64,000 bases of DNA. Origin: a virus. Every line of letters starts with the position of its first letter. The stretch's first letter is position 1. Made by a program: the position numbers and the translations under genes. The notes under the pieces were generated by a model that saw only the letters and a list, made by a program, of their open reading frames with translations, made no database searches and had not been told where the DNA came from. This document shows, piece by piece, positions 17,541-63,430 of the stretch. The DNA lies in the IMG/VR virus record IMGVR_UViG_3300037313_000833; one strand, given 5' to 3'.

Positions 17541-17556
17541 GCGGTAAGCCTTAACG
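17541..17556 (+). promoter_or_regulatory. GCGGTAAGCCTTAACG element facing into the ORF-poor region
   Basis: Exact consensus copy, 18 nt past the start of the divergent gene at 17523. Confidence 0.5.
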
Positions 17557-17585
17557 CAAGTATTTTTTAACTCACTGTGTCAATT

Positions 17586-17598
17586 ATTTCTTACCGCC
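17586..17598 (-). promoter_or_regulatory. GGCGGTAAGAAATAA element on the minus strand, upstream of the minus-strand cassette
   Basis: The reverse complement reads GGCGGTAAGAAATAA, matching 18277-18290 on the + strand. It lies about 65-75 nt upstream of ATG 17523. Confidence 0.45.
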
Positions 17599-18069
17599 TC
17601 TCAAGGCAAGCCTTCGGCATTGAGGCTTTGCCAGCCTCTCACCGGGACACATTATTAAAGTTTTGAACGTAAAATCTTAAGAAGAGATTTTTAGTTAAAA
17701 CTTAAGGCCGAATATAATTGGGCCCTTCTGACTGATTTAGTCAGATAATGTGCGGTTGCGTTTTGCGACGGTAGGATCTTTGTCATCTCTGTCTGGACAT
17801 CACCACACGGAATCCATCCGATTAGGCTTTGTCTCCCGGTGCTTCCGACACCGTGCTGTTCGACGCGAGAGAACCCGATGAAAGAACTCGCTTGTCGAGA
17901 TGACCGATCATTCCCGCGAATACTCGTCAAGTGAAAAGTGAAACCGTCCAGGGTATGAAGACTCGGGTCTCCATAGCCATCCCTGCTCTCCCTCAAGCCT
18001 GTTTCAATCGAGTTGAGAGGTTCAACGGTTTCTGACAAGGGCTCCCGCATACGCTTTAGCAGTATCCCC

Positions 18070-18115
18070 GGACCCCATGGCTTTAGAGCTTGTGACTCTT
18101 GGGGGTCCATTTTTT
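18070..18115 (+). terminator. intrinsic terminator
   Basis: GGACCCC (18070-76) pairs with GGGGTCC (18102-08). An inner AGAG/CTCT helix is present. T6 run at 18110-15. Confidence 0.6.
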
Positions 18116-18219
18116 CACTCACCTGAGAGACCTTTTTTCGGGACAAAAGTATCCCGGCGCACCCTGGGCGCGCGCCATCTAACGCATGGTCTACTGATTC
18201 GATGGAGAGGACTAACCTC

Positions 18220-18336
18220 ATGATGCATGAAAGTGTGCGCGCAATAAAGCGTACCGTCAATAAAAATTCTCCCGGTGCGGTAAGAAATACCGACAAAATA
18301 GTTGTTGCAGCTTCTCGGACACTGTGTCAGCATTGA
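18220..18336 (+). CDS. possible 38-aa basic peptide
   Basis: GGAGAGG lies 10 nt upstream of ATGATG. The ORF runs through the 18277 motif copy and is below the track's size cutoff. Confidence 0.25.
   Translation: MMHESVRAIKRTVNKNSPGAVRNTDKIVVAASRTLCQH
18277..18290 (+). promoter_or_regulatory. GCGGTAAGAAATAC element upstream of the 18376 operon
   Basis: TCTCCCGGTGCGGTAAG (18267-83) is identical to 50226-42. Confidence 0.45.
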
Positions 18337-18375
18337 ATTCTATAGTGCGTTCCTCCAAGACGGAGAAGAGAGGCG

Positions 18376-18786
18376 ATGACGATGACGACAGGTTCAAACG
18401 GGGATGGACTCAACTTAGAGCAATACAAGCTCGACCTTACGCAGGTAACAGTCAAAACTGTTTTTGACGTGTACGCCGAGGAGAAGCGTAAGTATGGTGA
18501 ACTATTCGCGAAAGAGCTGTTACTCGGAATCATCGCCTCTCTAATCTGTACGACGATGTATCACTCGCTCACCGAACCTACGGCTGACCGGGAACCCGTC
18601 GAGGGCGAGGATCAAGAAGGATACGAGATGACACGCGACTCCTTCTTGGAAATGCGAGAAGCCATTGAGAACACTGTGTCGTCAGCGTTTACCGGCGCTG
18701 TCAACTTGTGGAATCCGGATGGAAGAAATCCGGAGTATTGTTGTGAAATCGCTCCAGTCCCGGAGCCCGGAAAGTTCGAACACTGA
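18376..18786 (+). CDS. hypothetical protein
   Basis: GGAGAAGAGAGG upstream; first gene after the ORF-poor region. Confidence 0.65.
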   Translation: MTMTTGSNGDGLNLEQYKLDLTQVTVKTVFDVYAEEKRKYGELFAKELLLGIIASLICTTMYHSLTEPTADREPVEGEDQEGYEMTRDSFLEMREAIENTVSSAFTGAVNLWNPDGRNPEYCCEIAPVPEPGKFEH

Positions 18787-18804
18787 AAGAGAAGGAGAGA
18801 GACA

Positions 18805-19026
18805 ATGAAGCTGAAGAGGAATCAAAAGACGGCACGTTTTGGATGGAGCCTGCACATTCGTCGTGAAGGTGAAACAAAATTCGAACGCGTAGGTGAAAAC
18901 TTTGTATCAAGACACCTCGCTGATCAGCACCGTCAGCGCTACTATCCGACGGCCGCGGCGGCAAGGATTATGGGCATTCGTGCAAACGTGAAGCCCTTAA
19001 CTGCAACCCGTGAAGGTGACAAATGA
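18805..19026 (+). CDS. hypothetical basic protein
   Basis: AAGGAGAGAG upstream; coupled to the next gene by ATGA. Confidence 0.6.
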   Translation: MKLKRNQKTARFGWSLHIRREGETKFERVGENFVSRHLADQHRQRYYPTAAAARIMGIRANVKPLTATREGDK

Positions 19027-19415
19027 GATTTACGAAAAAAACTCAATACGGAATTATGTTCACGCTGCATCTCGCACGCGTGGGAAAAACGGGAACCCGT
19101 CAAGCTTCAAAAGAGCTTTCGATCTCCCCGACCTTCCTTGATCACGTCGTCATGGACCTCCGTCAAGCCGGAGTCATCGATGTGAAGAAAGGTCCAGGCG
19201 GAGGAGCGACACTTCGGAAGGATGCAACCCTTCTTGATGTCGTTGCAGCTCTTGAGAAGGACGTGATCCTGAACGATGAAGACGTGCGGTTTTATGAAGC
19301 AGGTGCGAGCGAAACGCACAAAAAATCGCTGCTCTTCTTGGACATGGCGGCCTCTTCGATGAAGCACCTTCTGTCCCAAACCATTAAAGAGTTTGCGACA
19401 AAGAGCGTGTTATGA
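19023..19415 (+). CDS. Rrf2-family (IscR/BadM-like) winged-helix transcriptional regulator
   Basis: MRFTKKTQYGIMFTLHLA...ISPTFLDHVVMDLRQAGVIDVKKGPGGGATL...LLDVVAALE fits the Rrf2 N-terminal pattern. Confidence 0.75.
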   Translation: MRFTKKTQYGIMFTLHLARVGKTGTRQASKELSISPTFLDHVVMDLRQAGVIDVKKGPGGGATLRKDATLLDVVAALEKDVILNDEDVRFYEAGASETHKKSLLFLDMAASSMKHLLSQTIKEFATKSVL

Positions 19416-19666
19416 CTTTGAAGAAAGCGCGACAAAAACTTCTCGAGCATGCATTGTCCTGGAAATTCCACTTGCTTTGTTTAAGCACGTGGCTCTTTTA
19501 CCATGACAAGCTCTCAGAGTCAGGCTGGCTGATGATGGCGGCATCCACAACCGGACTCCGCGAACTCGTCAACCTTGTCACGCTTAGGATGGGCGTCCAA
19601 TCTCAAGAACCGACCACGACGGTCGCAAACCCAGTCGTGGAGGAAAAATCAGATGGATCAAAATAA
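19412..19666 (+). CDS. hypothetical protein
   Basis: ATGA coupling at the start. Confidence 0.5.
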   Translation: MTLKKARQKLLEHALSWKFHLLCLSTWLFYHDKLSESGWLMMAASTTGLRELVNLVTLRMGVQSQEPTTTVANPVVEEKSDGSK

Positions 19667-20718: not shown

Positions 20719-20736
20719 GCGGTAAGGAGTAACGAC

Positions 20737-24987: not shown

Positions 24988-25398
24988 ATGGCGGATAAAA
25001 AAGAAAAGAAGCCGAGACCTCCAGCAACGGATAATCAGCTCATCAAAGGGGCTCTTCGTCGGGCGTTTGCACGTTCAATGGTTCACGATGCGATTATCTC
25101 AGCAACAATAGTGCAAGGATATTCCGACCCTAATCGTAAGAGAGTCAAGACGTGGTGCAGGTGTCCTAACTGTGGGAACTATGAAGCAAAATCCTATATG
25201 CAGGTGGATCACCTGGACCCGGTTCAACCCCTCGGTGTAACCCTGGAGGAGATGGACAAACACGAACTTATGGACCGCATATGGTGCAGTCCGACTAATC
25301 TCATGGCAACGTGTAAGACCTGTCACAGGACGAAAACGAATGCCGAGAACGCGGAACGACGCAAGATCCGCAATGCTAAAAAGAAAACCTTGCGGTAA
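24988..25398 (+). CDS. HNH endonuclease
   Basis: CRCPNCG...QVDHLDP...NLMATCKTCHRTKT. Confidence 0.8.
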   Translation: MADKKEKKPRPPATDNQLIKGALRRAFARSMVHDAIISATIVQGYSDPNRKRVKTWCRCPNCGNYEAKSYMQVDHLDPVQPLGVTLEEMDKHELMDRIWCSPTNLMATCKTCHRTKTNAENAERRKIRNAKKKTLR

Positions 25399-25408
25399 GC
25401 GTTAACGC
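25392..25408 (+). promoter_or_regulatory. GCGGTAAGCGTTAACGC element (supplies the HNH gene's TAA stop)
   Basis: Consensus-like copy. CATACT follows 14 nt downstream, then GAGGAG and ATG 25447. Confidence 0.5.
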
Positions 25409-25905: not shown

Positions 25906-27493
25906 GAAGAGTGAACGTCAAGACGACATCGTCAAGATTTACCTTGACCTTGTCAAAGAGAAGAAGGCTCACCCATCTCTCATCGATATGAAAGCAAAGA
26001 AGGTCACGCGATCCATGATCCGTGAGTCCTTCGATACGCTTGCAGGACTCCGCAAGTTTGCGAAGAAGTATTATCCTGAAGCGTTTGCTGGTATCATCGA
26101 CTATGAGCTTTTCACCCCAGCGGCTTTCAAAAAGCTCCAGACGAAGACGAAGAAGTACAAGCGTTTCGTCGTGACGACCGCAGTGCAAGGCTGTAAAGTT
26201 CATCGTGGCTTTTTCAATAGCTTGAAGACGTACTGCGCTGAGAACGACGCGCTTCTTCTCGTCATGCTTTGTACCGATCCAGCGGCGCTTGTCGGAGATA
26301 AGATCGATCCGATCCTCAACAAAGAAGTTATCGTTTTTGATAACCTCGCTTTGAACTCGAACATCTTTACGAATCCGATTAAGTTGTCGGCAAAGCATAT
26401 CGACCCAGTCACGGGTCTCGGACGCTTGGGTCAGCGCAACGGTTCGTTTATCTATGCATCACCGAAGCAGCGCCTTAAGATGATCCCGACTTCAAACACG
26501 AAGCCCCCAGTCGCCCTGATGACGACGGGAGCTTGTACGATTCCAGCTTACAACTCTGAACGCTACCTCTCGGATCGTACCGCGGTCATCGCACACAACG
26601 ACCACGTCATGGGCGCGATCATCGTTGAAGTTGAGAGCGATCGATTCTTCCACTTCCGTCAGATCCAATCTGAGCGAAGCGGAAGCTTTATTGATCTTGA
26701 CAAGTATTTCCAAGGCGACGTGATCTCCGCGGCACGCCCTGAAGCGCTTGTTCTCGGTGACTGGCATTCCGGTTCGACGGACCCAGTCGCGAAGGCCGCA
26801 ACGTTTGACCAGATCTGTACGCTGAAACCACGACGCCTCATCATTCATGACGGCTTTGATGGTCGCTCGATCTCACACCATGCGGAGAAAAATAAGATCC
26901 TTCGAGCCCAACGCGCTTCGAAGAACCAGCTCTCTCTTGAGCAGGAGCTTCGTCAATACGCAAAGGACTTGAATGAGCTTGTCGAGCTTTGTGAAGACGT
27001 GGAAGAAATCGTCATCGTTGAATCGAATCACGATGAACACCTGGATCGTTACCTCACCGAGGCTCGGTACGTGGAAGACCCGCAGAACCATGCGCTAGGT
27101 CTCAAGCTTGCCGGAGCAATGGTTGAAGGACGCGACCCGGTGAGAGCAGGCGTTGAAATGTTCGGGCTCAAGTACCCGGAGAAAATCCGCTGGCTCAGTC
27201 GTGACGAAGACTTCAAGATCGCACGCATCGAACTCGGCGCCCATGGTGACAAGGGTGCAAACGGTTCACGTGGCTCTCTCCGTGCCATGGAACAAGCCTA
27301 CGGTCAATCTGTGTCAGGCCATGCCCACACAGCTGAGATCCTCCGCGGCGCGTTCCAGACCGGAACTCTCTCCCTCCTCAAGATGGACTACAATGTGGGT
27401 CCGTCATCCTGGACACAGACAAACTGCACCGTGAATAAAAACGGATCGCGTCAGCTCCTAAATATCTTTAATGGACGCTGGCGTTTGCGGTAA
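25892..27493 (+). CDS. large metallophosphoesterase-domain protein (533 aa)
   Basis: AAGGAG before ATG 25892. C-terminal half carries LGDWHSG, HDGFDG, ESNHDEH, GAHGDKG, SGHAH. Confidence 0.75.
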   Translation: MAKTKKSERQDDIVKIYLDLVKEKKAHPSLIDMKAKKVTRSMIRESFDTLAGLRKFAKKYYPEAFAGIIDYELFTPAAFKKLQTKTKKYKRFVVTTAVQGCKVHRGFFNSLKTYCAENDALLLVMLCTDPAALVGDKIDPILNKEVIVFDNLALNSNIFTNPIKLSAKHIDPVTGLGRLGQRNGSFIYASPKQRLKMIPTSNTKPPVALMTTGACTIPAYNSERYLSDRTAVIAHNDHVMGAIIVEVESDRFFHFRQIQSERSGSFIDLDKYFQGDVISAARPEALVLGDWHSGSTDPVAKAATFDQICTLKPRRLIIHDGFDGRSISHHAEKNKILRAQRASKNQLSLEQELRQYAKDLNELVELCEDVEEIVIVESNHDEHLDRYLTEARYVEDPQNHALGLKLAGAMVEGRDPVRAGVEMFGLKYPEKIRWLSRDEDFKIARIELGAHGDKGANGSRGSLRAMEQAYGQSVSGHAHTAEILRGAFQTGTLSLLKMDYNVGPSSWTQTNCTVNKNGSRQLLNIFNGRWRLR

Positions 27494-27500
27494 GGCTTAC
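27487..27500 (+). promoter_or_regulatory. GCGGTAAGGCTTAC element (perfect GGTAAG-G-CTTACC palindrome; supplies a TAA stop)
   Basis: Read directly from the sequence. Confidence 0.45.
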
Positions 27501-27505
27501 CACGC

Positions 27506-28002: not shown

Positions 28003-28492
28003 CTCGAGCGTCGTCCGCGATCCTATTTTGGAATCCATCTCTAAGCTCCAGCCTCGCCTCAAAGGCGATGCTAAAGCACGCCTAGCCCGCGCCCTGCGCG
28101 ACGTTTCCCACGACAACGAATGCCAGATCTCTTGGAAGGTTTTGATCGCCGTAGCGTTCAATGAAAGCTCTCTTTGGGTCGGTAAGGTTAACCACAAAAC
28201 CAAAGATCATGGCTTGATGCAGATTAATGAAAAAAATATCTTGCGGATGGGTCTGGACAGACATAGACTCAAAACAGATGAGCGGTATGCCTTATCAGCA
28301 GGGTGCCGGATTCTGACTGACTTCAAGAAGGGATATGCGAAAAAGTTCCCAGCTTGGGTCGGAATGTATCGTGCGGGAGTTAATCTCCACAAACCTGCGG
28401 TAGTGCTTAGCGCACAGAAGTATGACACCATGATTCGTAAGACTGTCGCCCGCGTTGAAATGTCGGGCGTTCAGATCGCGAGGATGAAGTGA
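27920..28492 (+). CDS. lytic transglycosylase (SLT domain) with an N-terminal signal/SAR-like segment
   Basis: MTKTCITRLAILAMFSFPLSVAG; AFNESS (catalytic Glu-Ser); DHGLMQIN; MYRAGVN. An alternative ATG exists at 27896. Confidence 0.8.
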   Translation: MTKTCITRLAILAMFSFPLSVAGNGKLDSSVVRDPILESISKLQPRLKGDAKARLARALRDVSHDNECQISWKVLIAVAFNESSLWVGKVNHKTKDHGLMQINEKNILRMGLDRHRLKTDERYALSAGCRILTDFKKGYAKKFPAWVGMYRAGVNLHKPAVVLSAQKYDTMIRKTVARVEMSGVQIARMK

Positions 28493-30829: not shown

Positions 30830-31246
30830 GTGAACAATCCAAACTTTACGGCTGATGGTGTTCTCGTCCTGCGTTTGGATCACGAACCAGATGTGACTGG
30901 GCATACTATGCCGCCTAAAGCGCGGTTGCGTTACCGTCAGATGATCCCAGTTGTCTTTGACACAGAAGACGCTAGACCTGTCGGAATGGCAAAGCTTGTC
31001 CGTAATGGCGACGAAGTATTCGCTGACCTTACAATTGCGGTAAGCCCTTACGACAAAGCCCACGCGCTCAAGATGCTCAGGAAGCTTGTCCCAGCTATTG
31101 GGGGAGTGACTGTCAAGATTGTTGGTTCAGAGATTGTCGATTTTGAAATCAAGTTCATCATGCTGACGACTGAGAACCAAGATGACACCATCCCACCTCT
31201 CGGGGACAAAGTGATCCCGATCCCAGATAAAACGGAGATGCATTAA
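30830..31246 (+). CDS. hypothetical protein
   Basis: AAGGAG before the GTG. Contains an internal GCGGTAAGCCCTTAC (31037-51). Confidence 0.6.
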   Translation: MNNPNFTADGVLVLRLDHEPDVTGHTMPPKARLRYRQMIPVVFDTEDARPVGMAKLVRNGDEVFADLTIAVSPYDKAHALKMLRKLVPAIGGVTVKIVGSEIVDFEIKFIMLTTENQDDTIPPLGDKVIPIPDKTEMH

Positions 31247-31988: not shown

Positions 31989-32098
31989 ATCGTCAGCGCT
32001 ATGCTAGGTCATTTTTGATTTCCTGCATTTTAGAGGGCTCCCACGCTGGCACACAGCGTGCAACGATAACGCGTATCGCACGTGCAGTTAGCGTGCTA

Positions 32099-50094: not shown

Positions 50095-50153
50095 TGTTTG
50101 ATTCCTTTCATGAAAGCGCGCCGATCATTGACGCGTGAATCTATAGTAAATGC

Positions 50154-50168
50154 GTTTAGCGTTACCGC
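50154..50168 (-). promoter_or_regulatory. GCGGTAACGCTAAAC element on the minus strand
   Basis: The reverse complement reads ATAGTTATTGCGGTAACGCTAAACG; compare 54517-46. It lies upstream of minus gene 50094. Confidence 0.45.
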
Positions 50169-50234: not shown

Positions 50235-50250
50235 GCGGTAAGCTCTAATC
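50235..50250 (+). promoter_or_regulatory. GCGGTAAGCTCTAATC element
   Basis: Preceded by TCTCCCGGT, as at 18267; ATG 50251 follows directly. Confidence 0.4.
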
Positions 50251-50388
50251 ATGAGCAAGTTTGAATATAAGACGGTTGATACGAGTACGCTGAAAGGCCT
50301 GAAGGAAGCTGAGAAGCTTCACATGAGCGGATGGAAAATGATCCGTGTGGGTTTGTTCAGTATCCTGTTCGAGCGCAAGAAAAAGTAA
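50251..50388 (+). CDS. possible 45-aa protein
   Basis: MSKFEYKTVDTSTLKGLKEAEKLHMSGWKMIRVGLFSILFERKKK. No SD is visible. Confidence 0.4.
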   Translation: MSKFEYKTVDTSTLKGLKEAEKLHMSGWKMIRVGLFSILFERKKK

Positions 50389-50417
50389 TTGACTGACGGT
50401 AACAACTACCGCAAACT
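50389..50417 (+). promoter_or_regulatory. TTGACT-N17-CAAACT promoter-like site
   Basis: The leader CAAACTGACAAAGAAGGAG parallels the nrdJ leader. Confidence 0.45.
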
Positions 50418-51272: not shown

Positions 51273-51302
51273 TTGACAACAATTGTCGGTAAGCCTTAAC
51301 GT
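51273..51302 (+). promoter_or_regulatory. ATAGTTGACA-N18-TAACGT promoter with TCGGTAAGCC in the spacer
   Basis: Read directly from the sequence; GGGAGGA and ATG 51321 follow. Confidence 0.55.
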
Positions 51303-52767: not shown

Positions 52768-53119
52768 CATGAAATACAAGCCGGGCGTCACGTTCGGCGT
52801 GCGGCAAGGCTATGGGCTCGATGTTCTCGAGATCTGGATTCAAGCGTATGTGGATGATGCGCTTTATGTTCCAAGTCCAGCGAACCCGAATTACCCAAAG
52901 ATTCCGCTAAGGCTCGCCGAATGCGTACCGCCTTATGTGGTAACGCTTGCCGCTCTCAAAGAGTTCATGAGATACTTGTTTCGTAAGCTCGAGAACCATG
53001 AGGTTGACGAATGGTTCAAGTACGATGGGGAGTGTGTGACTGATCCACACCCCGAATTTAAATATGGAGATCTTGGAGATGACTCTAGCACTACTGCAAC
53101 AACTAATCGATCTCGGTAA
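52733..53119 (+). CDS. hypothetical protein
   Basis: ORF with protein-like composition. Confidence 0.6.
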   Translation: MTRYEIAQHLANMKYKPGVTFGVRQGYGLDVLEIWIQAYVDDALYVPSPANPNYPKIPLRLAECVPPYVVTLAALKEFMRYLFRKLENHEVDEWFKYDGECVTDPHPEFKYGDLGDDSSTTATTNRSR

Positions 53120-54520: not shown

Positions 54521-54546
54521 CAGCGTGACGCGGTAACGCTTAACAT
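54517..54546 (+). promoter_or_regulatory. TTGACA-N18-TAACAT promoter with GCGGTAACGC in the spacer
   Basis: Read directly from the sequence; AAAGGAGA and ATG 54571 follow. Confidence 0.6.
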
Positions 54547-54570: not shown

Positions 54571-55317
54571 ATGTACATTCCCCCAGAAAAAGAAATCGAG
54601 AAGAAGCTTGAAGCAGTTTACACGGAAATCTTTTCAAACCTTGGACGGTTCAAAGGCTCATTCATCGCAGGGGGATCGATCACATCCCTCGTTCTCGGAG
54701 AAGAGCCAAACGATTATGACATCTGGTTTGAGACCGTGGCTGACTGGGAGAACGCTTGTCACCTTGCACGTCGCGCTGTGGGCGATTTCAACGAAGGGCC
54801 TGTCACCATCATTTGTGAAACGGAACACGCGCTCACGTTCAAGCTCTTAGGCATGACCCCGGTGCTCCAGTTCGTAAAATCCCGCACCGGAGCATATGAC
54901 GAAGTCATTGAGCAGTTTGATTTCCTGCACGCTCAGGCCGCGTACCTCCCGTCTGATGAAGACGGGCTCGAGGGTGAGCTTTTGTTCGGGAACCGGAACT
55001 GCATCGACTTCATCAAAGAAAAAGTCCTCGTATTCGAAGGGAAGCTCGATTACCCAATCCATACGCTTTCGCGTCTCCAGAAGTTTGCAAAGCGTGGCTG
55101 GATCGTCCCCGACCAGACCCTTGCATGTCTGATTCGTGAGATCCGCAGGGCTGATCAAGATCTCATCGATCGGGATCAGAACGCTTGCGGTATGAAGTAC
55201 GGCGGGGAGGATTATCTGGGAGCAAAGAAAGCCGCGCTTGAAGCGGAGCATAAAATCATACACGATCCTGAGACCCAGCAATGCACGTGCGCCATCTGCG
55301 AAGGGATCTTTACTTGA
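54571..55317 (+). CDS. Pol-beta-superfamily nucleotidyltransferase-like protein
   Basis: GGSITSLVLGEEPNDYDIW fits the G[GS]-x(9-13)-DxD signature; C-terminal CTCAIC. Confidence 0.5.
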   Translation: MYIPPEKEIEKKLEAVYTEIFSNLGRFKGSFIAGGSITSLVLGEEPNDYDIWFETVADWENACHLARRAVGDFNEGPVTIICETEHALTFKLLGMTPVLQFVKSRTGAYDEVIEQFDFLHAQAAYLPSDEDGLEGELLFGNRNCIDFIKEKVLVFEGKLDYPIHTLSRLQKFAKRGWIVPDQTLACLIREIRRADQDLIDRDQNACGMKYGGEDYLGAKKAALEAEHKIIHDPETQQCTCAICEGIFT

Positions 55318-55343
55318 CAGCCCTTAGCGGTAAGCCTTAACAT
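55314..55343 (+). promoter_or_regulatory. TTGACA-N18-TAACAT promoter with GCGGTAAGCC in the spacer
   Basis: The TGA stop of the upstream gene lies inside TTGACA. The leader TCAAAGAAGAAGGAGA precedes ATG 55364. Confidence 0.6.
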
Positions 55344-55363: not shown

Positions 55364-55930
55364 ATGAAACGGAATCTTGGGAGCATTAAGTATTGGACAC
55401 CTGCACGTATTTTGGAAGAAGCAAAAAAGTACAAACAGCGTGGAGAGTGGATTAAAAAGAGTCCTGTCAGTTACACTGAATCGATCAAGCTCGGGCATCG
55501 ATTCCACCGCAAAGCCTGTAAGCATATGAGCTGGGGTCGTAAACTTAAGAACCCGCCTTTGAAGCCGCATGGTTATTGGACAAAAGAGCGCGTGACTCAA
55601 GAGGCTCTTAAGTGGGGGTCTTTCGCTCGCTGGCGTAAAAAGAGCTTCAGTTCTTACCTTATCGCTTATCAGCGTGGCTGGCGAAATCAGATTAGACGGC
55701 TTTTAGGTGATTACTCACATGGCGATGTGGGTCGAAAGTATTGGACTGAAAAGCGTATCGTGAATTACGTCGAGCGAAGCGACTACATGAAGTCCATGAA
55801 AGACTGGGCTAAAGAGTCTCCATCGACTTTTAAAGCTGCAAAGTCGTTGAGCAAAAAGAACAAAAAACTGATGCTGATTTGCAAGGTAGTGATCGAAAAG
55901 CGCGCCGCTCTTGACACACTGACGCGGTAA
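55364..55930 (+). CDS. protein made of three ~45-aa (K/G)YWT-type repeats
   Basis: IKYWTPARILEEAKKY..., HGYWTKERVTQEALKW..., RKYWTEKRIVNYVERS... Confidence 0.65.
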   Translation: MKRNLGSIKYWTPARILEEAKKYKQRGEWIKKSPVSYTESIKLGHRFHRKACKHMSWGRKLKNPPLKPHGYWTKERVTQEALKWGSFARWRKKSFSSYLIAYQRGWRNQIRRLLGDYSHGDVGRKYWTEKRIVNYVERSDYMKSMKDWAKESPSTFKAAKSLSKKNKKLMLICKVVIEKRAALDTLTR

Positions 55931-55940
55931 GCCTTAACAT
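55911..55940 (+). promoter_or_regulatory. TTGACA-N18-TAACAT promoter with GCGGTAAGCC in the spacer
   Basis: Lies inside the 3' end of gene 55364; the TAA stop is the TAA of GGTAAG. Confidence 0.6.
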
Positions 55941-55959: not shown

Positions 55960-56283
55960 ATGAAAGTCGAATATATCTGCAAGGAATGCGATCACAACCG
56001 AATGTACAAAAAGCGTCGCCCTAAAGTTTCGTCAAGAGCTGGAACCTATCCAGTTCTGTCGGGCTTTATTCGTATGCGCCGGATGGAACTCAAGATCAAA
56101 CAGCGGGATCTAGGTAAGATCTTGGGACTCCTTCCATCGGGCATGACCTCGATCGAGCAGGGGAAGGTAAGCGTCAAAACGACCCACCTTCCAACGATCG
56201 CAGAAGCGCTCCAGGTGGATCTCAGAACCATCGTGGACATGGCTGAGCTTGATCGGTTTATTGCGGCAAAAGGAGCGCGGTAA
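55960..56283 (+). CDS. XRE-family HTH regulator with an N-terminal CxxC element
   Basis: LSGFIRMRRMELKIKQRDLGKILGLLPSGMTSIEQGK. Confidence 0.7.
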   Translation: MKVEYICKECDHNRMYKKRRPKVSSRAGTYPVLSGFIRMRRMELKIKQRDLGKILGLLPSGMTSIEQGKVSVKTTHLPTIAEALQVDLRTIVDMAELDRFIAAKGAR

Positions 56284-56291
56284 GGCTTATG
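56277..56291 (+). promoter_or_regulatory. GCGGTAAGGCTTATG element spanning a stop codon and the next start codon
   Basis: TAA 56281-83 and ATG 56289-91 both fall inside the element. Confidence 0.4.
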
Positions 56292-56630
56292 GCATCAAAG
56301 AAAAATAGTCGTAAAAAAGTTTCAAAGAAAGTCGCAAAGACTACCTCAAAAGTAGGTCATATGACCTACAAACTAGGTGATCTGTTTTACGTGGGTAAGG
56401 ATCTCCAGACCATGGAAGTCGCGTTCATCAACGCAGGGAAAGCATTCATGAAACCGATCGGAGGTTTCATCGTTGAGGCTGTCCTCGATGAGCGTGGATA
56501 CGATCGCAAAGGCGTTCCAGCCGTTGCTCTCCAGGTCGTGGAGAAAATCGGTCAGGAAGTCGTTGAGAAGGTCTATAAAGAACAAGAGCGCGTCCTCTTC
56601 GGACACGCCATGGGATCAGGTGCAGTATGA
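56289..56630 (+). CDS. hypothetical protein with a lysine-rich N-terminus
   Basis: ORF; an alternative Met exists at 56361. Confidence 0.55.
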   Translation: MASKKNSRKKVSKKVAKTTSKVGHMTYKLGDLFYVGKDLQTMEVAFINAGKAFMKPIGGFIVEAVLDERGYDRKGVPAVALQVVEKIGQEVVEKVYKEQERVLFGHAMGSGAV

Positions 56631-56818: not shown

Positions 56819-57093
56819 GTCTCCCAATCGATCCCCCAAAACCTTCAGCCTGTCACGGTAACGTTCACTTCTGGGCGGCATCAGAAGCCGAAGGCACCTA
56901 CTGCATTTGTGGTAAGGCCTATAGCCCTAAGCAACCTTACGGCGAGAGAGTCGCTGTAAAGGCTGGAGAGACCCGTGAGTTTCCAGAAGGCTTCAAGGTC
57001 ACATTCCCATTCGCAGGCTTTTGGCAAGTCACCGTCAAGCCTCAAGAGGATCTGGTCAACTCGAAAGCCGCGATTATGGTGATGCGACTATGA
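56815..57093 (+). CDS. hypothetical protein
   Basis: ATGA coupling at both ends. Confidence 0.55.
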   Translation: MSLPIDPPKPSACHGNVHFWAASEAEGTYCICGKAYSPKQPYGERVAVKAGETREFPEGFKVTFPFAGFWQVTVKPQEDLVNSKAAIMVMRL

Positions 57094-57705: not shown

Positions 57706-58314
57706 ATGAACAGGTACTTCACGTCAGATCAACATTTCTCCCACGCAAACATCATCAAGTATTGCAACCGTCCGTTTGCTGACATCGAAGAGATGAATGA
57801 AGCCATGGTCGCACGTCACAATGCGATCGTGAAGCCGGGAGATGAAGTGTGGCACCTTGGAGACTTCTCGATGGGCCTTTCTGCGTTGAAGTATGTGGCA
57901 AGGCTTAACGGCATCCATAAGCTAGTGATGGGGAACCACGACAAGCCCCATCCCGTTTGCGCGAAGAGCGCCGCACATTCCATTGCAGCGTCAAAAACCT
58001 ACCACGCCGCGGGCTTCGATGAGATCATGCAGACGGCAAGCCTTATCATCGGCGAGGATCGTGTTCTTCTCCATCACATGCCGTACACCGGGGATACGCA
58101 TCCGAAAGAGGAGCGCTATAAAGACTACCGCTTGACGGATGAAGGCTTGTACCTGCTCCACGGTCACGTTCACAACGCTTGGTTAAAGCGTGGACGCCAG
58201 ATCAATGTCGGCGTCGATGTCTGGGCCTTTGCTCCGGTGAGCGAGGACGAAATTCTCGCCGTGATCAATTGCGGTAAGCGCGATCTAAAGAACATGGGAG
58301 AGTTCCCGTGGTAG
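57706..58314 (+). CDS. small metallophosphoesterase
   Basis: SDQHFSH, LGDFS, GNHD, HGHVH. Confidence 0.75.
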   Translation: MNRYFTSDQHFSHANIIKYCNRPFADIEEMNEAMVARHNAIVKPGDEVWHLGDFSMGLSALKYVARLNGIHKLVMGNHDKPHPVCAKSAAHSIAASKTYHAAGFDEIMQTASLIIGEDRVLLHHMPYTGDTHPKEERYKDYRLTDEGLYLLHGHVHNAWLKRGRQINVGVDVWAFAPVSEDEILAVINCGKRDLKNMGEFPW

Positions 58315-58463: not shown

Positions 58464-58492
58464 TTGACGAAGTCGGTAAGGCTTAGTATCCT
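58464..58492 (+). promoter_or_regulatory. ATAGTTGACG-N17-TATCCT promoter with TCGGTAAGGC in the spacer
   Basis: Read directly from the sequence; AGGAGG and ATG 58518 follow. Confidence 0.6.
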
Positions 58493-60231: not shown

Positions 60232-60269
60232 GCGGTAAGGCTTGACACTATTGACAGGATGAGTCAGCA
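60232..60269 (+). promoter_or_regulatory. GCGGTAAGGCTTGACA element with tandem TTGACA hexamers
   Basis: TTGACA at 60242-47 and 60251-56; GGAGG and ATG 60288 follow. Confidence 0.45.
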
Positions 60270-60287: not shown

Positions 60288-60536
60288 ATGAGCGATTCAT
60301 GGGAAAAAGTTAGAGTCATCGAAGCCGAGACGAAGCTGGTCGAGGCGCAGGCACGTGACAAAGAAGCAAAGGCGAAAGTCCTTGCCGAGTCAAAGCATAC
60401 GACTGCGGTAAAGCTTTTCGGCTTGTCCGTCCTGGACGTACCTCCACTCTTTATCTGGGGAACGTTGTGGCTCAGTCAGATCTTGACGTGGGGCTTCCTC
60501 ATGATGGTTTTCAGAAAGGACGTATTCCCACGATGA
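60288..60536 (+). CDS. membrane protein
   Basis: PPLFIWGTLWLSQILTWGFLMMVF. Confidence 0.6.
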   Translation: MSDSWEKVRVIEAETKLVEAQARDKEAKAKVLAESKHTTAVKLFGLSVLDVPPLFIWGTLWLSQILTWGFLMMVFRKDVFPR

Positions 60537-62330: not shown

Positions 62331-62341
62331 AGACCCCCGGT

Positions 62342-62357
62342 GCGGTAAGCCTTGACA
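62342..62357 (+). promoter_or_regulatory. GCGGTAAGCCTTGACA element
   Basis: Preceded by CCCGGT, as at 18271 and 50230. Confidence 0.45.
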
Positions 62358-62543
62358 AAAACGCAGAAGTGAGAAACAAGATCAGAATCGCCGAAAGCAC
62401 GATGTACACGCAGGCGATGAGGGTCAAACAAGATTTTACGACGCGACGCATCATGAGTTTAAGTTTATGCCCGACCGCTAGGGTGTGTCAACAAGGACAA
62501 CCGACAATTCGACATCAATCTAAAAAATGTATGCGGATAGTAA

Positions 62544-62572
62544 TTGACATGCGAAGTCAAGTATTGTAACCT
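62544..62572 (+). promoter_or_regulatory. TTGACA-N17-TAACCT sigma70-like promoter
   Basis: The TAACCTGAG -10 context is shared with 63425. AAAAGGAGA and ATG 62631 lie downstream. Confidence 0.6.
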
Positions 62573-62630
62573 GAGTTTAGATAGTGGGGAATTAACAACT
62601 TCTTCACAACTGAAAAGGAGACCTGATAAA

Positions 62631-62849
62631 ATGGACCTCAAGAATATGCTGTACTGGGAGAAGTTCCGTAAACTCCAAGCTAAGGCCGCTCAAAAAGGTT
62701 TGTACTGCGTCCCATGCAATGCCCGTCGCACATTAGGTAAGGATGTGACCCCTGAAGTCGCATTAAACGCCTACCGCTGCAAAACCTGCAAAACCCTGTG
62801 TCTTTTTCGATCCAGTGCTCCCCTCTCGAATCGTGCATTGTGCAATTGA
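62631..62849 (+). CDS. small zinc-ribbon protein
   Basis: CVPC...CKTC; AAAAGGAGA upstream. Confidence 0.65.
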   Translation: MDLKNMLYWEKFRKLQAKAAQKGLYCVPCNARRTLGKDVTPEVALNAYRCKTCKTLCLFRSSAPLSNRALCN

Positions 62850-62852
62850 TAG

Positions 62853-62881
62853 TTGACAAGTTTAATCGGACTTGAGATCCT
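62853..62881 (+). promoter_or_regulatory. ATAGTTGACA-N17-GATCCT promoter-like site
   Basis: Shares the ATAGTTGAC context with 51269, 58460 and 63398; the -10 is weak. Confidence 0.4.
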
Positions 62882-62912
62882 GTATCTGTGGAACGTCGGA
62901 TAGGAGGACACC

Positions 62913-63167
62913 ATGGATACTAACAAGAAAGTACAGCTACTCAGAAGCCCAGCACGTGAAGGAATCGAACTCGTAATCGGAACGGACCGCGTAACTCTGA
63001 AACTGGACAATACAGTGGACGATGCTGAAGTGGAATCGCTTGTGGAGTTTGCACAGCTTGTCGCTCAAAAGTGTGGTAAGACAAAAGTAATCGTTCGCGG
63101 AAAAGTAGAACGAACCTTGGACGGCGGTTTCAGTACCGCCATCCCAGCAGCAAGTCTCGGAGCCTGA
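62913..63167 (+). CDS. hypothetical small protein
   Basis: TAGGAGGA upstream; a terminator lies downstream. Confidence 0.7.
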   Translation: MDTNKKVQLLRSPAREGIELVIGTDRVTLKLDNTVDDAEVESLVEFAQLVAQKCGKTKVIVRGKVERTLDGGFSTAIPAASLGA

Positions 63168-63196
63168 GCAATAGGTTCCCGAGTGGAGGAACGAAA

Positions 63197-63231
63197 GGCC
63201 CGGTGGGAAACCATCGGGCCTTTTGCTTTTT
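63197..63231 (+). terminator. strong intrinsic terminator
   Basis: 10-bp stem GGCCCGGTGG / CCATCGGGCC with a GAAA loop, then TTTTGCTTTTT. Confidence 0.85.
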
Positions 63232-63401
63232 ATGGTGTCATATAGGGCGTCAGACGCGTGCGGTAAGGTGCCTTAAAAGACATCATTCGAGGGTGTGCGC
63301 TAAGCGCTATGTGCAAAAATCTGCACCTAATTTTGTGCAAAAAAGTGTACATACGATAAATTCCCTAATGGTTTCAACGAAAGATTTTTTGAAAATAATA
63401 G

Positions 63402-63430
63402 TTGACGGTAGCAGTAAGGCTTAGTAACCT
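63402..63430 (+). promoter_or_regulatory. ATAGTTGACG-N17-TAACCT promoter with GCAGTAAGGC in the spacer
   Basis: Read directly from the sequence; AGGAAGGA and ATG 63486 lie downstream. Confidence 0.6.

What the first reader, a model, noticed from the sequence alone, without database searches (positions are those of the whole stretch)
17541..63430. Strand-oriented GCGGTAAG(C/G)CTTAAC element with at least 20 copies, overlapping promoters, stop codons and some coding sequence
**Copy number and orientation**
- The exact octamer GCGGTAAG occurs on the + strand at least at 9230, 17541, 18277, 20056, 20719, 25392, 27487, 31037, 35329, 38174, 40761, 42434, 50235, 55327, 55924, 56277, 58271, 60232, 62342 and 63260.
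- One-mismatch copies lie at 43452, 51286, 54530, 58473 and 63411.
- A random 8-mer is expected about once per strand in 64 kb.
- Minus-strand copies (17591-98, 35132-39, 50161-68) are few. Two of the three sit upstream of the only minus-strand genes, so the element is co-oriented with transcription.

**Extended form**
- Intergenic copies extend to GCGGTAAG(C/G)CTTAAC(A/G).
- This is an imperfect palindrome, GGTAA-N3-TTA(A/C)C. It is perfect at 27489, 42436 and 43454.

**Relationship to promoters**
- In four cases (51273, 54517, 55314, 55911) it fills the spacer of a TTGACA-N18-TAAC(A/G)T promoter.
- Elsewhere (32099, 60232, 62342) its 3' half is itself the TTGACA hexamer.
- In others (25392, 40761) it lies at a different distance from a CATACT -10.
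- The variable register, palindromic character and presence inside CDSs in several reading frames point to selection at the DNA level.

**Possible roles**
- An operator for a dimeric phage regulator. Candidates in the window are Rrf2 (19023), XRE (55960) and Fis-like (47429).
- A recognition element for one of the phage sigma-like proteins.
- Less likely, a Chi-like oriented signal.
Basis: seen in the sequence. Interest (0 to 1): 0.8.

Follow-up and report, generated by a model that had tools for sequence, protein, structure and literature searches.

The report
Dispersed palindromic phage operator network
A 17-bp palindromic DNA site (GCGGTAAG-N-CTTACCGC) occurs about 50 times in this uncultured ~84-kb phage, sits on its host-type promoters, and is most likely the binding site of a phage-encoded dimeric regulator (best candidate an Rrf2-family protein), so it is a new example of a known kind of phage-wide control circuit.

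Summary
The octamer enrichment is real: 28 exact copies against 1.2 expected, 24 on the + strand. The full unit is a 17-19 bp dyad, tGCGGTAAG-S-CTTACCGCa, with 49 sites at >=12/16 matches against 2.7 expected. Nineteen sites lie at gene boundaries and 30 inside genes, in both orientations. Synonymous-codon shuffles show the intragenic copies are selected at the DNA level. Seven exact copies are only in-frame Gly-Lys codons. Fourteen of the 19 intergenic sites overlap sigma70-type promoters. Their right arm often doubles as the -10 (TAnnnT) or -35 (TTGACA) hexamer, which explains the degenerate right arm and the apparent strand bias. In relatives the register between element and promoter slides, so it behaves as an operator, not a promoter element. 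The element is conserved at syntenic positions in five related phage genomes, changes to GCGATAAG in a 60% relative, and is absent from more distant ones. No RNA structure, Rfam family or second promoter box is associated. A cysteine-free Rrf2-family regulator (19023-19415) is the only candidate binder conserved in every motif-bearing relative that could be checked. Binding is untested. Verdict: a new variant of dispersed phage operator systems (L5 stoperators, phiC31 CIRs).

The parts
19023..19415 (+). Rrf2-family regulator gene (130 aa, no cysteines); best candidate binder of the dyad
   Evidence: Pfam Rrf2 E 1.6e-14, above the cut-off. AF2 model pLDDT 81; the top 36 PDB fold matches are all Rrf2 dimers. 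Conserved at 66-90% in L133, L134 and L135.
17541..17557 (+). Dyad GCGGTAAGCCTTAACGC (15/16) between minus-strand genes, just upstream of the ATG of gene 17053-17523(-)
   Evidence: Identical in L133, where flanks are 69% identical.
17590..17597 (-). Isolated exact half-site GCGGTAAG, 6 nt upstream of a minus-strand TTGACA
18241..18257 (.). Weak dyad lying in the spacer of a minus-strand TTGACG-N17-CACACT promoter-like pair
   Evidence: read from the sequence.
18277..18293 (+). Dyad GCGGTAAGAAATACCGA in the divergent control region upstream of the Rrf2 operon; preceded by CCCGGTG
   Evidence: Conserved block CCCGGTG-[dyad ...TACCGAC]-AAAATAGTTGTTG in L133, L134 and L135.
20719..20735 (+). Dyad overlapping the TGA stop of 20179-20718 and the AAGGAG ribosome-binding site of 20737
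   Evidence: Syntenic in L133 (11702) and L134 (11654).
25392..25408 (+). Dyad GCGGTAAGCGTTAACGC; the TAA stop of the HNH gene lies inside the left arm
   Evidence: Conserved in L133, L134 and L135; 88% identity against 70% in flanks.
27487..27503 (+). Dyad GCGGTAAGGCTTACCAC (15/16); the TAA stop of 25892-27493 lies inside the left arm; followed by a hairpin carrying AGTATATA
32096..32112 (+). Degenerate dyad CTAGTAAGCCTTGACAC; the right arm is a TTGACA hexamer
35329..35345 (+). Dyad in the promoter of the dNMP kinase gene: TTGACG(35322)-N1-dyad, then TACCGT as -10
   Evidence: Syntenic in L129, L130, L132, L137 and L136, with the register shifted by 6 nt.
40761..40777 (+). Dyad in the PolA/RNR junction promoter TTGCCG(40747)-N17-CATACT
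   Evidence: Syntenic in L129, L130, L132 and L137.
43452..43468 (+). Dyad TCGGTAAGCATTACCAT with TTGCCT-N17-TACCAT
45326..45342 (.). Dyad GTGGTAAGTCTAACCGC (14/16), intergenic
49743..49759 (+). Dyad GCGGTAGGGCTTGCCGT, part of the 49.7-50.4 kb cluster
50152..50168 (-). Dyad upstream of the only minus-strand gene of the right arm (49858-50094); the better arm reads on the minus strand
50235..50251 (+). Exact octamer with a weak right arm, 16 nt before the ATG at 50251; preceded by CCCGGTG
50396..50412 (.). Dyad ACGGTAACAACTACCGC directly after TTGACT (50389)
51286..51302 (+). Dyad in TTGACA(51273)-N18-TAACGT; the right arm is the -10 hexamer
54530..54546 (+). Dyad in TTGACA(54517)-N18-TAACAT, upstream of the Gad2-like gene
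55327..55343 (+). Dyad in TTGACA(55314)-N18-TAACAT
55924..55940 (+). Dyad in TTGACA(55911)-N18-TAACAT, upstream of the XRE gene; the TAA stop of 55364-55930 lies inside the left arm
56277..56293 (+). Dyad with the TAA stop of the XRE gene inside the left arm, 12 nt before the ATG at 56289
58473..58489 (+). Dyad TCGGTAAGGCTTAGTAT inside TTGACG(58464)-N17-TATCCT
60232..60248 (+). Dyad whose right arm is the -35 hexamer TTGACA (60242)
62342..62358 (+). Dyad whose right arm is TTGACA (62352); lies 20 nt after the strong terminator 62292-62321; preceded by CCCGGTG
63260..63276 (+). Exact octamer with an atypical right arm, 35 nt after the terminator 63192-63225
63411..63427 (+). Dyad GCAGTAAGGCTTAGTAA after TTGACG
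1330..1346 (.). Intragenic dyad, 12/16
2701..2717 (.). Intragenic dyad, 13/16
2993..3009 (.). Intragenic dyad ACGGTAAGCTTTACCGC, 14/16
7001..7017 (.). Intragenic dyad, 12/16
15857..15873 (.). Intragenic dyad in the minus-strand helicase gene, 14/16; left arm kept in L133 and L134
22905..22921 (.). Intragenic dyad, 12/16; not conserved in L133
24034..24050 (.). Intragenic dyad, 12/16; not conserved in L133
25699..25715 (.). Intragenic dyad with the exact arm on the minus strand, 13/16
28179..28195 (.). Intragenic dyad in the SLT gene, 12/16
28282..28298 (.). Intragenic dyad in the SLT gene, 12/16; 94% conserved in L133 and L134
28397..28413 (.). Intragenic dyad in the SLT gene; conserved in L133, L134 and L135, which use the rarest Val and Arg codons (GTA-AGG) here
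31037..31053 (.). Intragenic copy with an exact left arm and the right arm shifted by 1 nt
34727..34743 (.). Intragenic dyad, 13/16
35123..35139 (.). Intragenic dyad with the exact arm on the minus strand, 13/16
35845..35861 (.). Intragenic dyad, 12/16; kept in L129
38174..38190 (.). Intragenic copy with an exact left arm, 12/16; lost in relatives
42434..42450 (.). Intragenic dyad GCGGTAAGCGTTACCGT in the RNR gene, 14/16
43932..43948 (.). Intragenic dyad, 13/16
45575..45591 (.). Intragenic dyad, 12/16
45934..45950 (.). Intragenic dyad, 12/16
46674..46690 (.). Intragenic dyad, 12/16
48908..48924 (.). Intragenic dyad GCGGTACGCCTTACCGG, 14/16
49877..49893 (.). Dyad inside the minus-strand gene 49858-50094, 12/16
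52937..52953 (.). Intragenic dyad GTGGTAACGCTTGCCGC, 13/16
55187..55203 (.). Intragenic dyad, 12/16
56909..56925 (.). Intragenic dyad, 12/16
57895..57911 (.). Intragenic dyad, 12/16
60405..60421 (.). Intragenic dyad, 12/16

Best explanation
The element is the operator of a phage-encoded, dyad-symmetric (homodimeric) DNA-binding regulator. Its consensus is tGCGGTAAG-S-CTTACCGCa. The conserved core of about 20-25 sites lies on the host-sigma70-type promoters of the early and DNA-metabolism genes.

In those promoters the dyad covers roughly -23 to -7, with its right arm doubling as the TAnnnT -10 hexamer. In other promoters it covers the -35 hexamer (right arm = TTGACA). A bound dimer would therefore exclude RNA polymerase, so the regulator most likely acts as a repressor that shuts off or throttles these promoters.

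A further ~30 weaker sites inside genes are kept in number by selection but turn over in position. They may act as auxiliary sites or roadblocks.

The most likely binder is the cysteine-free Rrf2-family protein encoded at 19023-19415. It sits in the first + strand operon, next to a divergent control region that itself carries several dyads.

Shown here: the existence, symmetry, enrichment, promoter overlap and conservation of the sites, and the Rrf2 fold of the candidate. Inferred: protein binding, the identity of the binder, repression rather than activation, and the role of the intragenic sites.
For: - Dyad: GCGGTAAGNCTTACCGC with <=3 mismatches gives 25 hits against 0.12 expected. The symmetric criterion gives 49 sites against 2.7. 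Information content is confined to positions 1-16, with T12 A13 C15 mirroring T5 A6 G3.
- DNA-level selection in both orientations inside genes: 17 sense and 9 antisense against 0.78 and 0.42 in 200 synonymous shuffles. Replicated in relatives: 17 against 4.1 summed.
- Promoter overlap: 14 of 19 intergenic sites against 4 of 30 intragenic sites overlap a -35/-10 pair. Three of the best sigma70-like hits of the region are TTGACA-N18-TAACAT with the dyad in the spacer and -10.
- Sliding register: at the dNMP-kinase promoter the dyad is 1 nt after TTGACG in the window and L129, but 7 nt after it in L130, L132 and L137, where its right arm TACCGT is the -10.
- Conservation: syntenic sites in L129/L133, L130/L134, L132, L135 and L137. 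Intergenic sites are 88-100% identical against 68-78% for their flanks in the 84% relative. The variant GCGATAAG occurs in L136, including the perfect palindrome TGCGATAAGGCTTATCGCA. The dyad is absent from L138, L002 and L121.
- Binder: Rrf2 by Pfam and by fold (the family includes dimers solved on palindromic operators). The winged HTH is nearly invariant across relatives. Rrf2 is present in 3 of 3 covered motif-bearing relatives. The Fis-like and 31482 sigma-like proteins are not conserved, and the sigma-r2-like protein is also present in motif-free L138.
- No RNA-level signal.
Against: - No binding data exist.
- The two arms are not equivalent. Left position 4 is G in 38 of 44 sites, whereas its mirror in the right arm is variable (G 16, T 15, A 7, C 6). 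The mirrored change in L136 is only a trend.
- No Rrf2 homolog was retrieved for the L136 genome, which carries the variant dyad. Its Rrf2-equivalent region could not be fetched.
- The window's XRE (55960) is flanked by two dyads, and its true ortholog position in relatives lies beyond the fetched flanks, so XRE is not excluded.
- Several conserved sites (20719, 25392, 50235, 56277) have no recognisable promoter and lie 12-55 nt from the next start codon.
- About 30 intragenic sites are more than a simple promoter repressor needs.
- Known Rrf2 operators are longer; for example, NsrR was solved on a 23-bp operator.
Confidence: 0.6

Rival explanations
1. The system is a stoperator-like genome-wide silencer. 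The main job of the protein-dyad pair is to block elongating RNA polymerase at many sites, at gene boundaries and inside genes, as the cluster A mycobacteriophage repressor does. This would keep most of the genome silent in a dormant, pseudolysogenic or late state. Promoter occlusion would be only one part of the mechanism.
For: - Density is about one site per kb across 17-64 kb, with 30 intragenic sites enriched about 20-fold over synonymous shuffles.
- Conserved boundary sites lack a recognisable promoter and overlap stop codons (20719, 25392, 27487, 56277).
- The stronger arm usually lies upstream relative to transcription (7.5 against 5.6 matches).
- L5 stoperators are >20 sites in short intergenic spaces, oriented with transcription (PMC9283540).
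Against: - The site is a dyad, not an asymmetric 13-mer bound by a monomer.
- Intragenic sites occur in both orientations, and about half are not conserved in the 84% relative.
- No integrase or other lysogeny gene was seen in the ~70 kb examined.
- Roadblock activity is unknown for Rrf2 proteins.
Confidence: 0.12
2. The dyad is the binding site of a host transcription factor that the phage exploits. The site varies between phage clades because their hosts differ.
For: - The site variant tracks clade and GC content: GCGGTAAG at 51-57% GC, GCGATAAG at 46% GC, and none at 39-43% GC.
- No Rrf2 homolog was found for the L136 genome.
Against: - A conserved phage-encoded dimeric regulator sits beside the control region in all covered motif-bearing genomes.
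- About 50 sites, including intragenic ones, would be unusual for hijacking a host factor.
- The host is unknown, so host genomes could not be scanned.
Confidence: 0.08
3. The dyad has a non-transcriptional DNA role. It could be a loading or marking site for replication, recombination, partition, compaction or self-recognition, for example a centromere-like or Chi-like signal.
For: - Sites are spread genome-wide, including inside genes.
- Clusters at 17.5-18.3 kb and 49.7-50.4 kb coincide with strand switches, and the first also with the minimum of cumulative GC skew.
- The phage encodes RecA-like and SbcCD proteins.
Against: - A palindrome cannot give the polarity of a Chi-like signal.
- No ParA/ParB or similar genes were found.
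- Sites are 5.6-fold over-represented at gene boundaries: 19 of 49 sites lie in 13% of the sequence.
- The conserved sites are the promoter-overlapping ones.
- Sites are 3.5-fold rarer in the tail-gene module.
Confidence: 0.08
4. The element is a promoter recognition element for a phage sigma-like factor (31482 ECF-like, 29595 r2-like, 57162) or for another phage-directed polymerase.
For: - The phage encodes sigma-like proteins.
- Exact octamers are mostly co-oriented with genes, 24:4.
Against: - No second conserved box exists from -40 to +60.
- The distance to -35/-10 and to start codons varies, and three copies lie 12-18 nt from the ATG.
- Both orientations are enriched in genes.
- The 31482 sigma-like gene is not conserved among motif-bearing relatives, and the r2-like gene is present in motif-free L138.
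- A separate -35-less motif, AGTATA(T/A)A, before the late genes is the better candidate for the phage sigma.
Confidence: 0.05
5. The element acts at the RNA level, as a hairpin, a processing site or the site of an RNA-binding protein in the transcripts.
For: - It is located in 5' UTRs and at stop codons.
- A cold-shock-domain protein is encoded at 48998.
Against: - Six of 8 representative copies fold no better than shuffles, and an 8-1-8 palindrome cannot form its full stem.
- There is no Rfam match.
- Antisense intragenic copies are enriched too.
- Sequence, not pairing, is conserved.
Confidence: 0.02

Closest known systems
Operator/stoperator sites of cluster A mycobacteriophages (L5 gp71 type repressors)
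   Same: More than 20 copies of one short site are spread over the phage genome, in promoters and in short intergenic spaces, often at gene junctions. The stronger reading is co-oriented with transcription. One phage regulator is expected to control most of the genome (PMC9283540).
   Different: L5 sites are asymmetric 13-mers bound by a two-domain monomer and work only in one orientation. Here the site is a 17-19 bp dyad found in both orientations, the candidate binder is an Rrf2 dimer, and no lysogeny genes were found.
phiC31 conserved inverted repeats (CIRs) bound by the c repressor (Ingham et al. 1994, cited from memory; not in the searchable library)
   Same: A 17-bp inverted repeat is present in many highly conserved copies in the intergenic regions of the early region, acts as operator of a phage regulator, and includes the regulator's own promoter region.
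   Different: phiC31 is temperate and its repressor is unrelated to Rrf2. CIRs are, as far as I recall, intergenic, whereas here 30 of 49 sites are intragenic.
22-bp oriented intergenic repeats of lytic T1-like phages (T1, Stevie)
   Same: They occur at 16-20 copies, are predominantly intergenic, are oriented with transcription, and belong to a virulent phage. Their function is unknown (PMC4319613).
   Different: The sequence is different and asymmetric, no dyad is present, and no regulator has been assigned.
Rrf2-family regulators and their operators (IscR, NsrR, RsrR, CymR)
   Same: The candidate binder has the Rrf2 winged-HTH plus dimerisation-helix fold. These proteins bind inverted repeats as homodimers and often repress by covering -35/-10. 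CymR likewise lacks an Fe-S cluster.
   Different: Known members are cellular regulators of iron-sulfur, NO, redox or cysteine regulons with longer sites; for example, NsrR was solved on a 23-bp operator. None is known as a phage-wide regulator, and the literature search found none. The site sequence here is unrelated to published Rrf2 boxes (from memory).
KorB operators (OB) of IncP plasmids (from memory)
   Same: A palindromic operator is repeated about a dozen times around a mobile genome. Some copies lie at promoters and some far from any promoter, and all are bound by one global regulator.
   Different: KorB is a ParB-family protein on a plasmid with a partition function. No ParB homolog is present here.

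Membership tests
Dyad-symmetric operator of a homodimeric transcription regulator | Inverted-repeat symmetry beyond chance | tested here: met
   25 hits within 3 mismatches against 0.12 expected. 49 sites against 2.7 with each arm >=4/8.
Dyad-symmetric operator of a homodimeric transcription regulator | Overlap with core promoter elements at variable register | tested here: met
   14 of 19 intergenic sites overlap a -35/-10 pair. The register slides by 6 nt between relatives.
Dyad-symmetric operator of a homodimeric transcription regulator | Both half-sites change together when specificity changes | tested here: inconclusive
   The left arm changes G to A in L136 (38/44 G against 7/13 A). The mirrored change in the right arm is only a trend. 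One perfect variant palindrome lies at L136:18822.
Dyad-symmetric operator of a homodimeric transcription regulator | Specific binding by the regulator | not testable with these tools
   Needs EMSA, footprinting or DAP-seq.
Rrf2-family regulon | An Rrf2 protein (winged HTH plus dimerisation helix) is encoded | tested here: met
   Pfam PF02082 at 54.6 bits against a cut-off of 30. AF2 pLDDT 81; the top 36 PDB fold hits are all Rrf2, TM 0.68-0.74.
Rrf2-family regulon | Three cluster-ligating cysteines (IscR/NsrR/RsrR type) | tested here: not met
   None of the six orthologs has any cysteine. It is therefore a cluster-less member like CymR, not an Fe-S sensor.
Rrf2-family regulon | Regulator and motif co-occur across genomes | tested here: inconclusive
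   Present in 3 of 3 covered motif-bearing relatives. Close homologs were found only on contigs of the motif-bearing clade. The Rrf2 region of L136 (variant motif) and of the motif-free L138 and L002 could not be fetched.
Cluster A mycobacteriophage stoperators | Asymmetric 13-bp site bound by a monomer | tested here: not met
   The site is a 17-19 bp dyad.
Cluster A mycobacteriophage stoperators | Orientation strictly correlated with the direction of transcription | tested here: inconclusive
   Exact octamers are 24 co-oriented against 4 anti-oriented. However, dyads are enriched in both orientations in genes, and the bias is explained by promoter overlap and Gly-Lys codons.
Cluster A mycobacteriophage stoperators | Temperate phage with an immunity repressor and an integration or partition module | tested here: not met
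   No integrase, ParAB or L5-type repressor was found among the proteins scanned or in the flanks. About 14 kb of the genome was not seen.
Sigma-factor or phage RNA polymerase promoter | Fixed geometry: a second box at 16-19 nt or a fixed distance to the start, one orientation only, not inside genes | tested here: not met
   No information outside positions 1-16. Distances to ATG range from 12 to 289 nt. Antisense intragenic enrichment.
Chi-like oriented recombination signal | Asymmetric sequence with polarity relative to DNA ends or replication | tested here: not met
   The sequence is palindromic, concentrated at promoters, and depleted in the tail-gene module.
Structured RNA element or intrinsic terminator | Stable hairpin, covariation of pairs, known family | tested here: not met
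   Six of 8 copies fold no better than shuffles. There are no Rfam hits at gathering score.

The most novel reading that the evidence does not exclude
A cluster-less Rrf2 protein and its ~50 dyads form a genome-wide switch in an apparently virulent ~84-kb soil phage. The switch silences, or holds poised, nearly all early and middle transcription, both by promoter occlusion and by intragenic roadblocks, in response to a host physiological signal sensed by the Rrf2 protein. It would amount to a lysogeny-independent 'dormancy' or timing circuit, built from a regulator family never before implicated in phage-wide control.
Probability: 0.15. Interest if true: 0.75.

Novelty: new variant of a known kind. 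Interest (0 to 1): 0.5.

Why it matters
If confirmed, it defines the regulatory code of a large, uncultured clade of ~80-kb phages, for which more than 1,400 PolA relatives are in public assemblies. One dyad would mark the early and middle promoters, and a second, -35-less motif would mark the late genes.

It would add Rrf2 proteins to the short list of regulator families that phages use for genome-wide control. It also gives a compact promoter/operator/regulator set, with natural specificity variants (GCGGTAAG against GCGATAAG), that could be tested directly and reused as orthogonal parts. The enrichment of labile intragenic sites poses a clear question: what does a dimeric repressor do inside genes?

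Tried and rejected
- **Nucleotide search of the phage collection:** no match. PolA and TerL by tblastn reach at most 30% identity to cultured phages.
- **Exact-motif scan of IMG/VR:** only single chance hits, uninformative.
- **IMG/VR and JGI metagenome relatives of PolA (L001, L002, L121-L126):** too distant or too short. L124 is not syntenic after PolA.
- **Natural variation:** contigs from other runs are identical to the window, with 0 mismatches over 18 kb, so none could be used.
- **CCCGGTG / CCCCGGTG word:** examined as a possible second regulatory motif and rejected as mostly coding (Pro-Gly / Pro-Val). The exceptions are four junctions with the dyad.
- **Generic sigma70 scan:** total promoter-like sites are not above shuffles (17 against 13.9; 21 against 14.2). 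Only the specific top hits are informative.
- **Rrf2 relatives:** the profile search, the IMG/VR scan and the GTDB genome scan found no further phage or prophage relatives.
- **L138 palindrome:** the perfect palindrome at its syntenic promoter is a singleton. No alternative dispersed dyad exists in L138 or L002.
- **Other operon proteins:** p18376 and p18805 have no PDB relatives, so they remain unassessed as binders.
- **'Compensatory change in both arms':** I first read the L136 variant this way. A criterion blind to positions 4 and 14 shows only the left-arm change is solid.

Full report
**What the window is.** The window is part of an uncultured tailed phage of about 84 kb. The same sequence occurs in Logan assemblies SRR35147159 (83.8 kb) and SRR35148586 (83.4 kb), with no mismatch over 18 kb.
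- No nucleotide relative exists in the cultured-phage collection.
- PolA and TerL are at most 30% identical to cultured phages.
- Positions 1-14.9 kb carry large + strand structural genes.
- Positions 15.1-18.3 kb carry minus-strand genes, including a helicase.
- Positions 18.4-64 kb carry + strand genes: Rrf2, a RecA-like protein, SbcCD, HNH, SLT, two ClpP-like proteins, sigma-like proteins, TerL, dNMP kinase, primase-helicase, PolA, RNR, dUTPase, ThyX and many small ORFs.

**Checking the observation.** Exact GCGGTAAG occurs 28 times (24 +, 4 -) against 1.17 expected. It is the most enriched 8-mer in the window.
- Seven exact copies are in-frame GGT-AAG codons (Gly-Lys). They include the Walker A motifs of the dNMP kinase (35411) and the helicase (16125-), and they have no right arm. 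These are coding coincidences (contexts; conserved as coding sequence).

**What the element really is.** Iterating a weight matrix from the exact copies converged on a palindrome, tGCGGTAAG-S-CTTACCGCa. That matrix was trained on its own hits, so I tested the idea independently in three ways.
1. The fixed pattern GCGGTAAGNCTTACCGC with up to 3 mismatches has 25 matches against 0.12 expected.
2. A symmetric rule (>=12 of 16 matches, each arm >=4) finds 49 sites against 2.7 in Markov-2 random sequence.
3. A matrix trained only on 20 intergenic or boundary sites finds 17 sense and 9 antisense hits (>=12 bits) inside genes of 17.5-64 kb. The same genes after synonymous-codon shuffling give 0.78 and 0.42.

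The dyad is therefore selected at the DNA level inside genes as well, in both orientations. A weaker version of this enrichment is seen in five relatives: 17 against 4.1 summed. Information content is confined to positions 1-16 of the dyad, and nothing is conserved at a fixed distance from -40 to +60.

**Where the sites are.** Forty-four of the 49 sites lie beyond 17.4 kb, and the tail-gene module has about 3.5-fold fewer per kb. Nineteen sites lie in the 13% of the sequence that is intergenic or within 12 nt of a gene end.
- Fourteen of these 19 overlap a sigma70-like -35/-10 pair, against 4 of 30 intragenic sites.
- Four promoters read TTGACA-N18-TAAC(A/G)T with the dyad covering the last 11 nt of the spacer and the whole -10. 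Three of them are among the best sigma70-like matches of the region.
- At 60232, 62342 and 32096 the right arm is TTGACA itself.
- Two strong terminators (62292-62321 and 63192-63225) are each followed within 20-35 nt by a copy, marking the start of a new transcription unit.
- Several copies contain the TAA stop codon of the upstream gene in their left arm (25392, 27487, 55924, 56277).

**Why it looks strand-oriented.** In intergenic sites the upstream arm matches the consensus far better than the downstream arm (7.5 against 5.6 of 8). In genes the difference is small (6.7 against 5.8). The alignments of syntenic promoters explain this. The downstream arm is repeatedly used as the -10 hexamer (TACCGT, TAACAT, TAACGT, TAGTAT, that is TAnnnT) or as the -35 hexamer. 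Together with the Gly-Lys coincidences, this accounts for the 24:4 strand bias. One feature is not explained: position 4 is almost always G in the left arm, but its mirror in the right arm is variable.

**Relatives.** A search with PolA found a graded series of relatives. I fetched the following loci:

| Locus | PolA identity | Note |
|---|---|---|
| L129/L133 | 84% | same phage |
| L130/L134 | 73% | same phage |
| L132 | 73% | |
| L137 | 71% | |
| L135 | not known | its Rrf2 is 66-68% identical |
| L136 | 60% | |
| L138 | 58% | |

- All genomes down to 71% carry the same dyad far above chance. It sits at syntenic positions: the site between the minus-strand genes, the stop-codon sites before and after the 'DNA transfer'-like genes, the dNMP-kinase/MazZ promoter, the PolA/RNR promoter, and one site inside the SLT gene.
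- In three relatives the SLT site (A-V-R-L-S-A) uses GTA and AGG, the rarest Val and Arg codons of the window phage.
- In the 84% relative, intergenic sites are 88-100% identical while their flanks are 68-78% identical. About half of the intragenic sites are not conserved. This gives a conserved promoter-associated core and a labile intragenic population.
- At the dNMP-kinase/MazZ promoter the dyad lies 1 nt after TTGACG in the window and L129, with a separate TACCGT/TAGCGT -10. It lies 7 nt after TTGACG in L130, L132 and L137, where the right arm is the -10. Such sliding fits an operator laid over a promoter, not a promoter element.
- L136 (46% GC) has a variant, TGCGATAAG-N-CTTA(A/T)CGCA. 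It includes a perfect palindrome and four near-identical promoters in which the dyad fills the TTGTGC-N17-TATGCT spacer.
- With a criterion blind to positions 4 and 14, the left-arm G-to-A switch is solid (38/44 against 7/13). The mirrored right-arm switch is only a trend.
- L138 (43% GC) and L002 and L121 (39-40% GC) have no dispersed dyad. The CGGTAAG words in L138 are all Gly-Lys codons.

**Who binds it.** The candidates in the window are:
- Rrf2 (19023);
- an ECF-like small sigma (31482);
- a weak sigma-r2-like protein (29595);
- a Mor-like protein (30194);
- a Fis-type HTH (47429);
- an XRE (55960);
- a weak sigma-r4-like protein (57162).

Local tblastn against the relatives gave these results:
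- Rrf2 is present in all three relatives whose equivalent region is covered (90%, 71% and 66%).
- Fis-like is absent from four motif-bearing relatives that cover its position.
- The 31482 sigma is found only in the closest relative.
- The r2-like protein is also present in motif-free L138.

The XRE genes of L130 and L132 are only about 20% identical to the window's XRE. However, the true XRE position lies outside the fetched flanks, so XRE is weakened but not excluded.

The phage Rrf2 has no cysteine, so it is a cluster-less member like CymR, and its winged HTH is nearly invariant among orthologs. Its AlphaFold model (pLDDT 81) matches only Rrf2 dimers among the top 36 PDB hits, several of them solved on inverted-repeat operators. 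Its gene lies in the first + strand operon, next to a divergent control region (17.5-18.4 kb) that carries four to five dyads and a block conserved in all relatives.

Two points count against the assignment. No Rrf2 homolog was retrieved from the L136 genome (its Rrf2-equivalent region could not be fetched). Known Rrf2 operators are longer.

**Mechanism proposed.** A dimer bound at -23 to -7, or across the -35 hexamer, of promoters with near-consensus -35 boxes would exclude RNA polymerase. The regulator is therefore most likely a repressor of the early and DNA-metabolism promoters. It would be made from an operon that is itself flanked by dyads, giving feedback or timing. This step is inference from geometry.

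The late genes carry a different, -35-less motif, AGTATA(T/A)A. It lies 10-20 nt upstream of their ribosome-binding sites (375, 6505, 12900, 27516, 32779) and is conserved in relatives. This motif is the better partner for the phage sigma-like proteins. The role of the intragenic sites is open: auxiliary binding, roadblocks, or something unrelated to transcription.

**Rivals.**
- A sigma or polymerase promoter element is disfavoured.
- An RNA element is disfavoured: Rfam gives nothing, and 6 of 8 copies fold no better than shuffles.
- A Chi-like signal is incompatible with a palindrome.
- A host factor, a stoperator-like silencing role and a non-transcriptional DNA role cannot be excluded. They are scored in the rival list.

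**Comparison with what is known.** The logic is that of dispersed phage operators.
- L5 stoperators are more than twenty asymmetric 13-mers, oriented with transcription and bound by a monomer (PMC9283540).
- The phiC31 17-bp conserved inverted repeats are cited from memory.
- The unexplained 22-bp oriented repeats of T1 and Stevie are a further parallel (PMC4319613).

This element differs in four ways: it is a dyad, it is abundant inside genes, it sits in a phage without visible lysogeny genes, and it is probably read by an Rrf2 protein. A full-text search found no report of an Rrf2 regulator with a phage-wide operator set. I therefore rate it a new variant of a known kind, of moderate interest.

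Noticed in passing
window 375-382, 6505-6512, 12900-12907, 27516-23, 32779-86 (+ strand); also L133:4095, L133:18990, L135:3548, L129:4174, L132:12227: A second conserved motif, (G)AGTATA(T/A)A, lies 10-20 nt upstream of the ribosome-binding sites of structural and late genes (1841-aa protein, 739-aa protein, 12913 gene, 27540 gene, and the gene before TerL). It has no -35 box and resembles a T4-late-type promoter. It probably pairs with the phage sigma-like proteins.
   Followed up: partly
window 18271-18277, 29113-29119, 50229-50235, 62336-62342: CCCGGTG directly abuts the dyad (CCCGGTGCGGTAA) four times. CCCGGTG followed by the dyad is also conserved upstream of the Rrf2 operon in L133, L134 and L135. 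Elsewhere the word is mostly Pro-Gly or Pro-Val coding. The meaning of the composite is unexplained.
   Followed up: partly
window 27506-27538: A hairpin (GGGGCTCCTGA...TCAGGAGCCCC) lies immediately after the 27487 dyad, with the AGTATATA motif in its loop. An equivalent hairpin is present in L133.
   Followed up: no
window 51080-51155: A tRNA-Gly (anticodon TCC) is encoded in the early region.
   Followed up: no
window 31482-31955 and 29595-30197: A small ECF-like sigma factor (157 aa; NCBIfam sigma70-ECF E 5.8e-9, below the cut-off) and a weak sigma-region-2-like protein are encoded. The latter is conserved even in the motif-free relative L138.
   Followed up: partly
window 54571-55317: This protein carries a precomputed Pfam hit to Gad2 (anti-Gabija, PF26128) and is expressed from one of the dyad-controlled TTGACA-N18-TAACAT promoters. 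My own Pfam scan at E <= 0.01 did not return the hit.
   Followed up: no
L130:6954-7361, L132:1036-1455, L136:7082-7456, L137:2184-2579: Relatives carry a MazZ-like dGTP diphosphohydrolase N-domain gene (PF18909) at the place where the window and L129 have a dNMP kinase. This may hint at modified-base metabolism in part of the clade.
   Followed up: no
window ~12-20 kb: Cumulative GC skew has its minimum here. Genes at 1-15 kb are on the + strand yet have negative GC skew, whereas + strand genes beyond 20 kb have positive skew. The switch coincides with the divergent control region at 17.5-18.4 kb, which could be a replication origin.
   Followed up: no
L138:7452-7468: A perfect 8-1-8 palindrome, CTTTACTTCAAGTAAAG, lies at the promoter position syntenic to the window's 35329 dyad in the dyad-free relative L138. 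It is a singleton in the 22 kb available.
   Followed up: yes
window 421-5946; 28668-29222 and 34700-35317: The 1841-aa structural protein has a C1q domain near its C-terminus. The phage also encodes two ClpP-like proteases.
   Followed up: no
L127:17990-18361 (about 2 kb beyond the right end of the window): A stand-alone response-regulator receiver-domain protein (123 aa) is encoded just before the portal/Mu-F gene.
   Followed up: no
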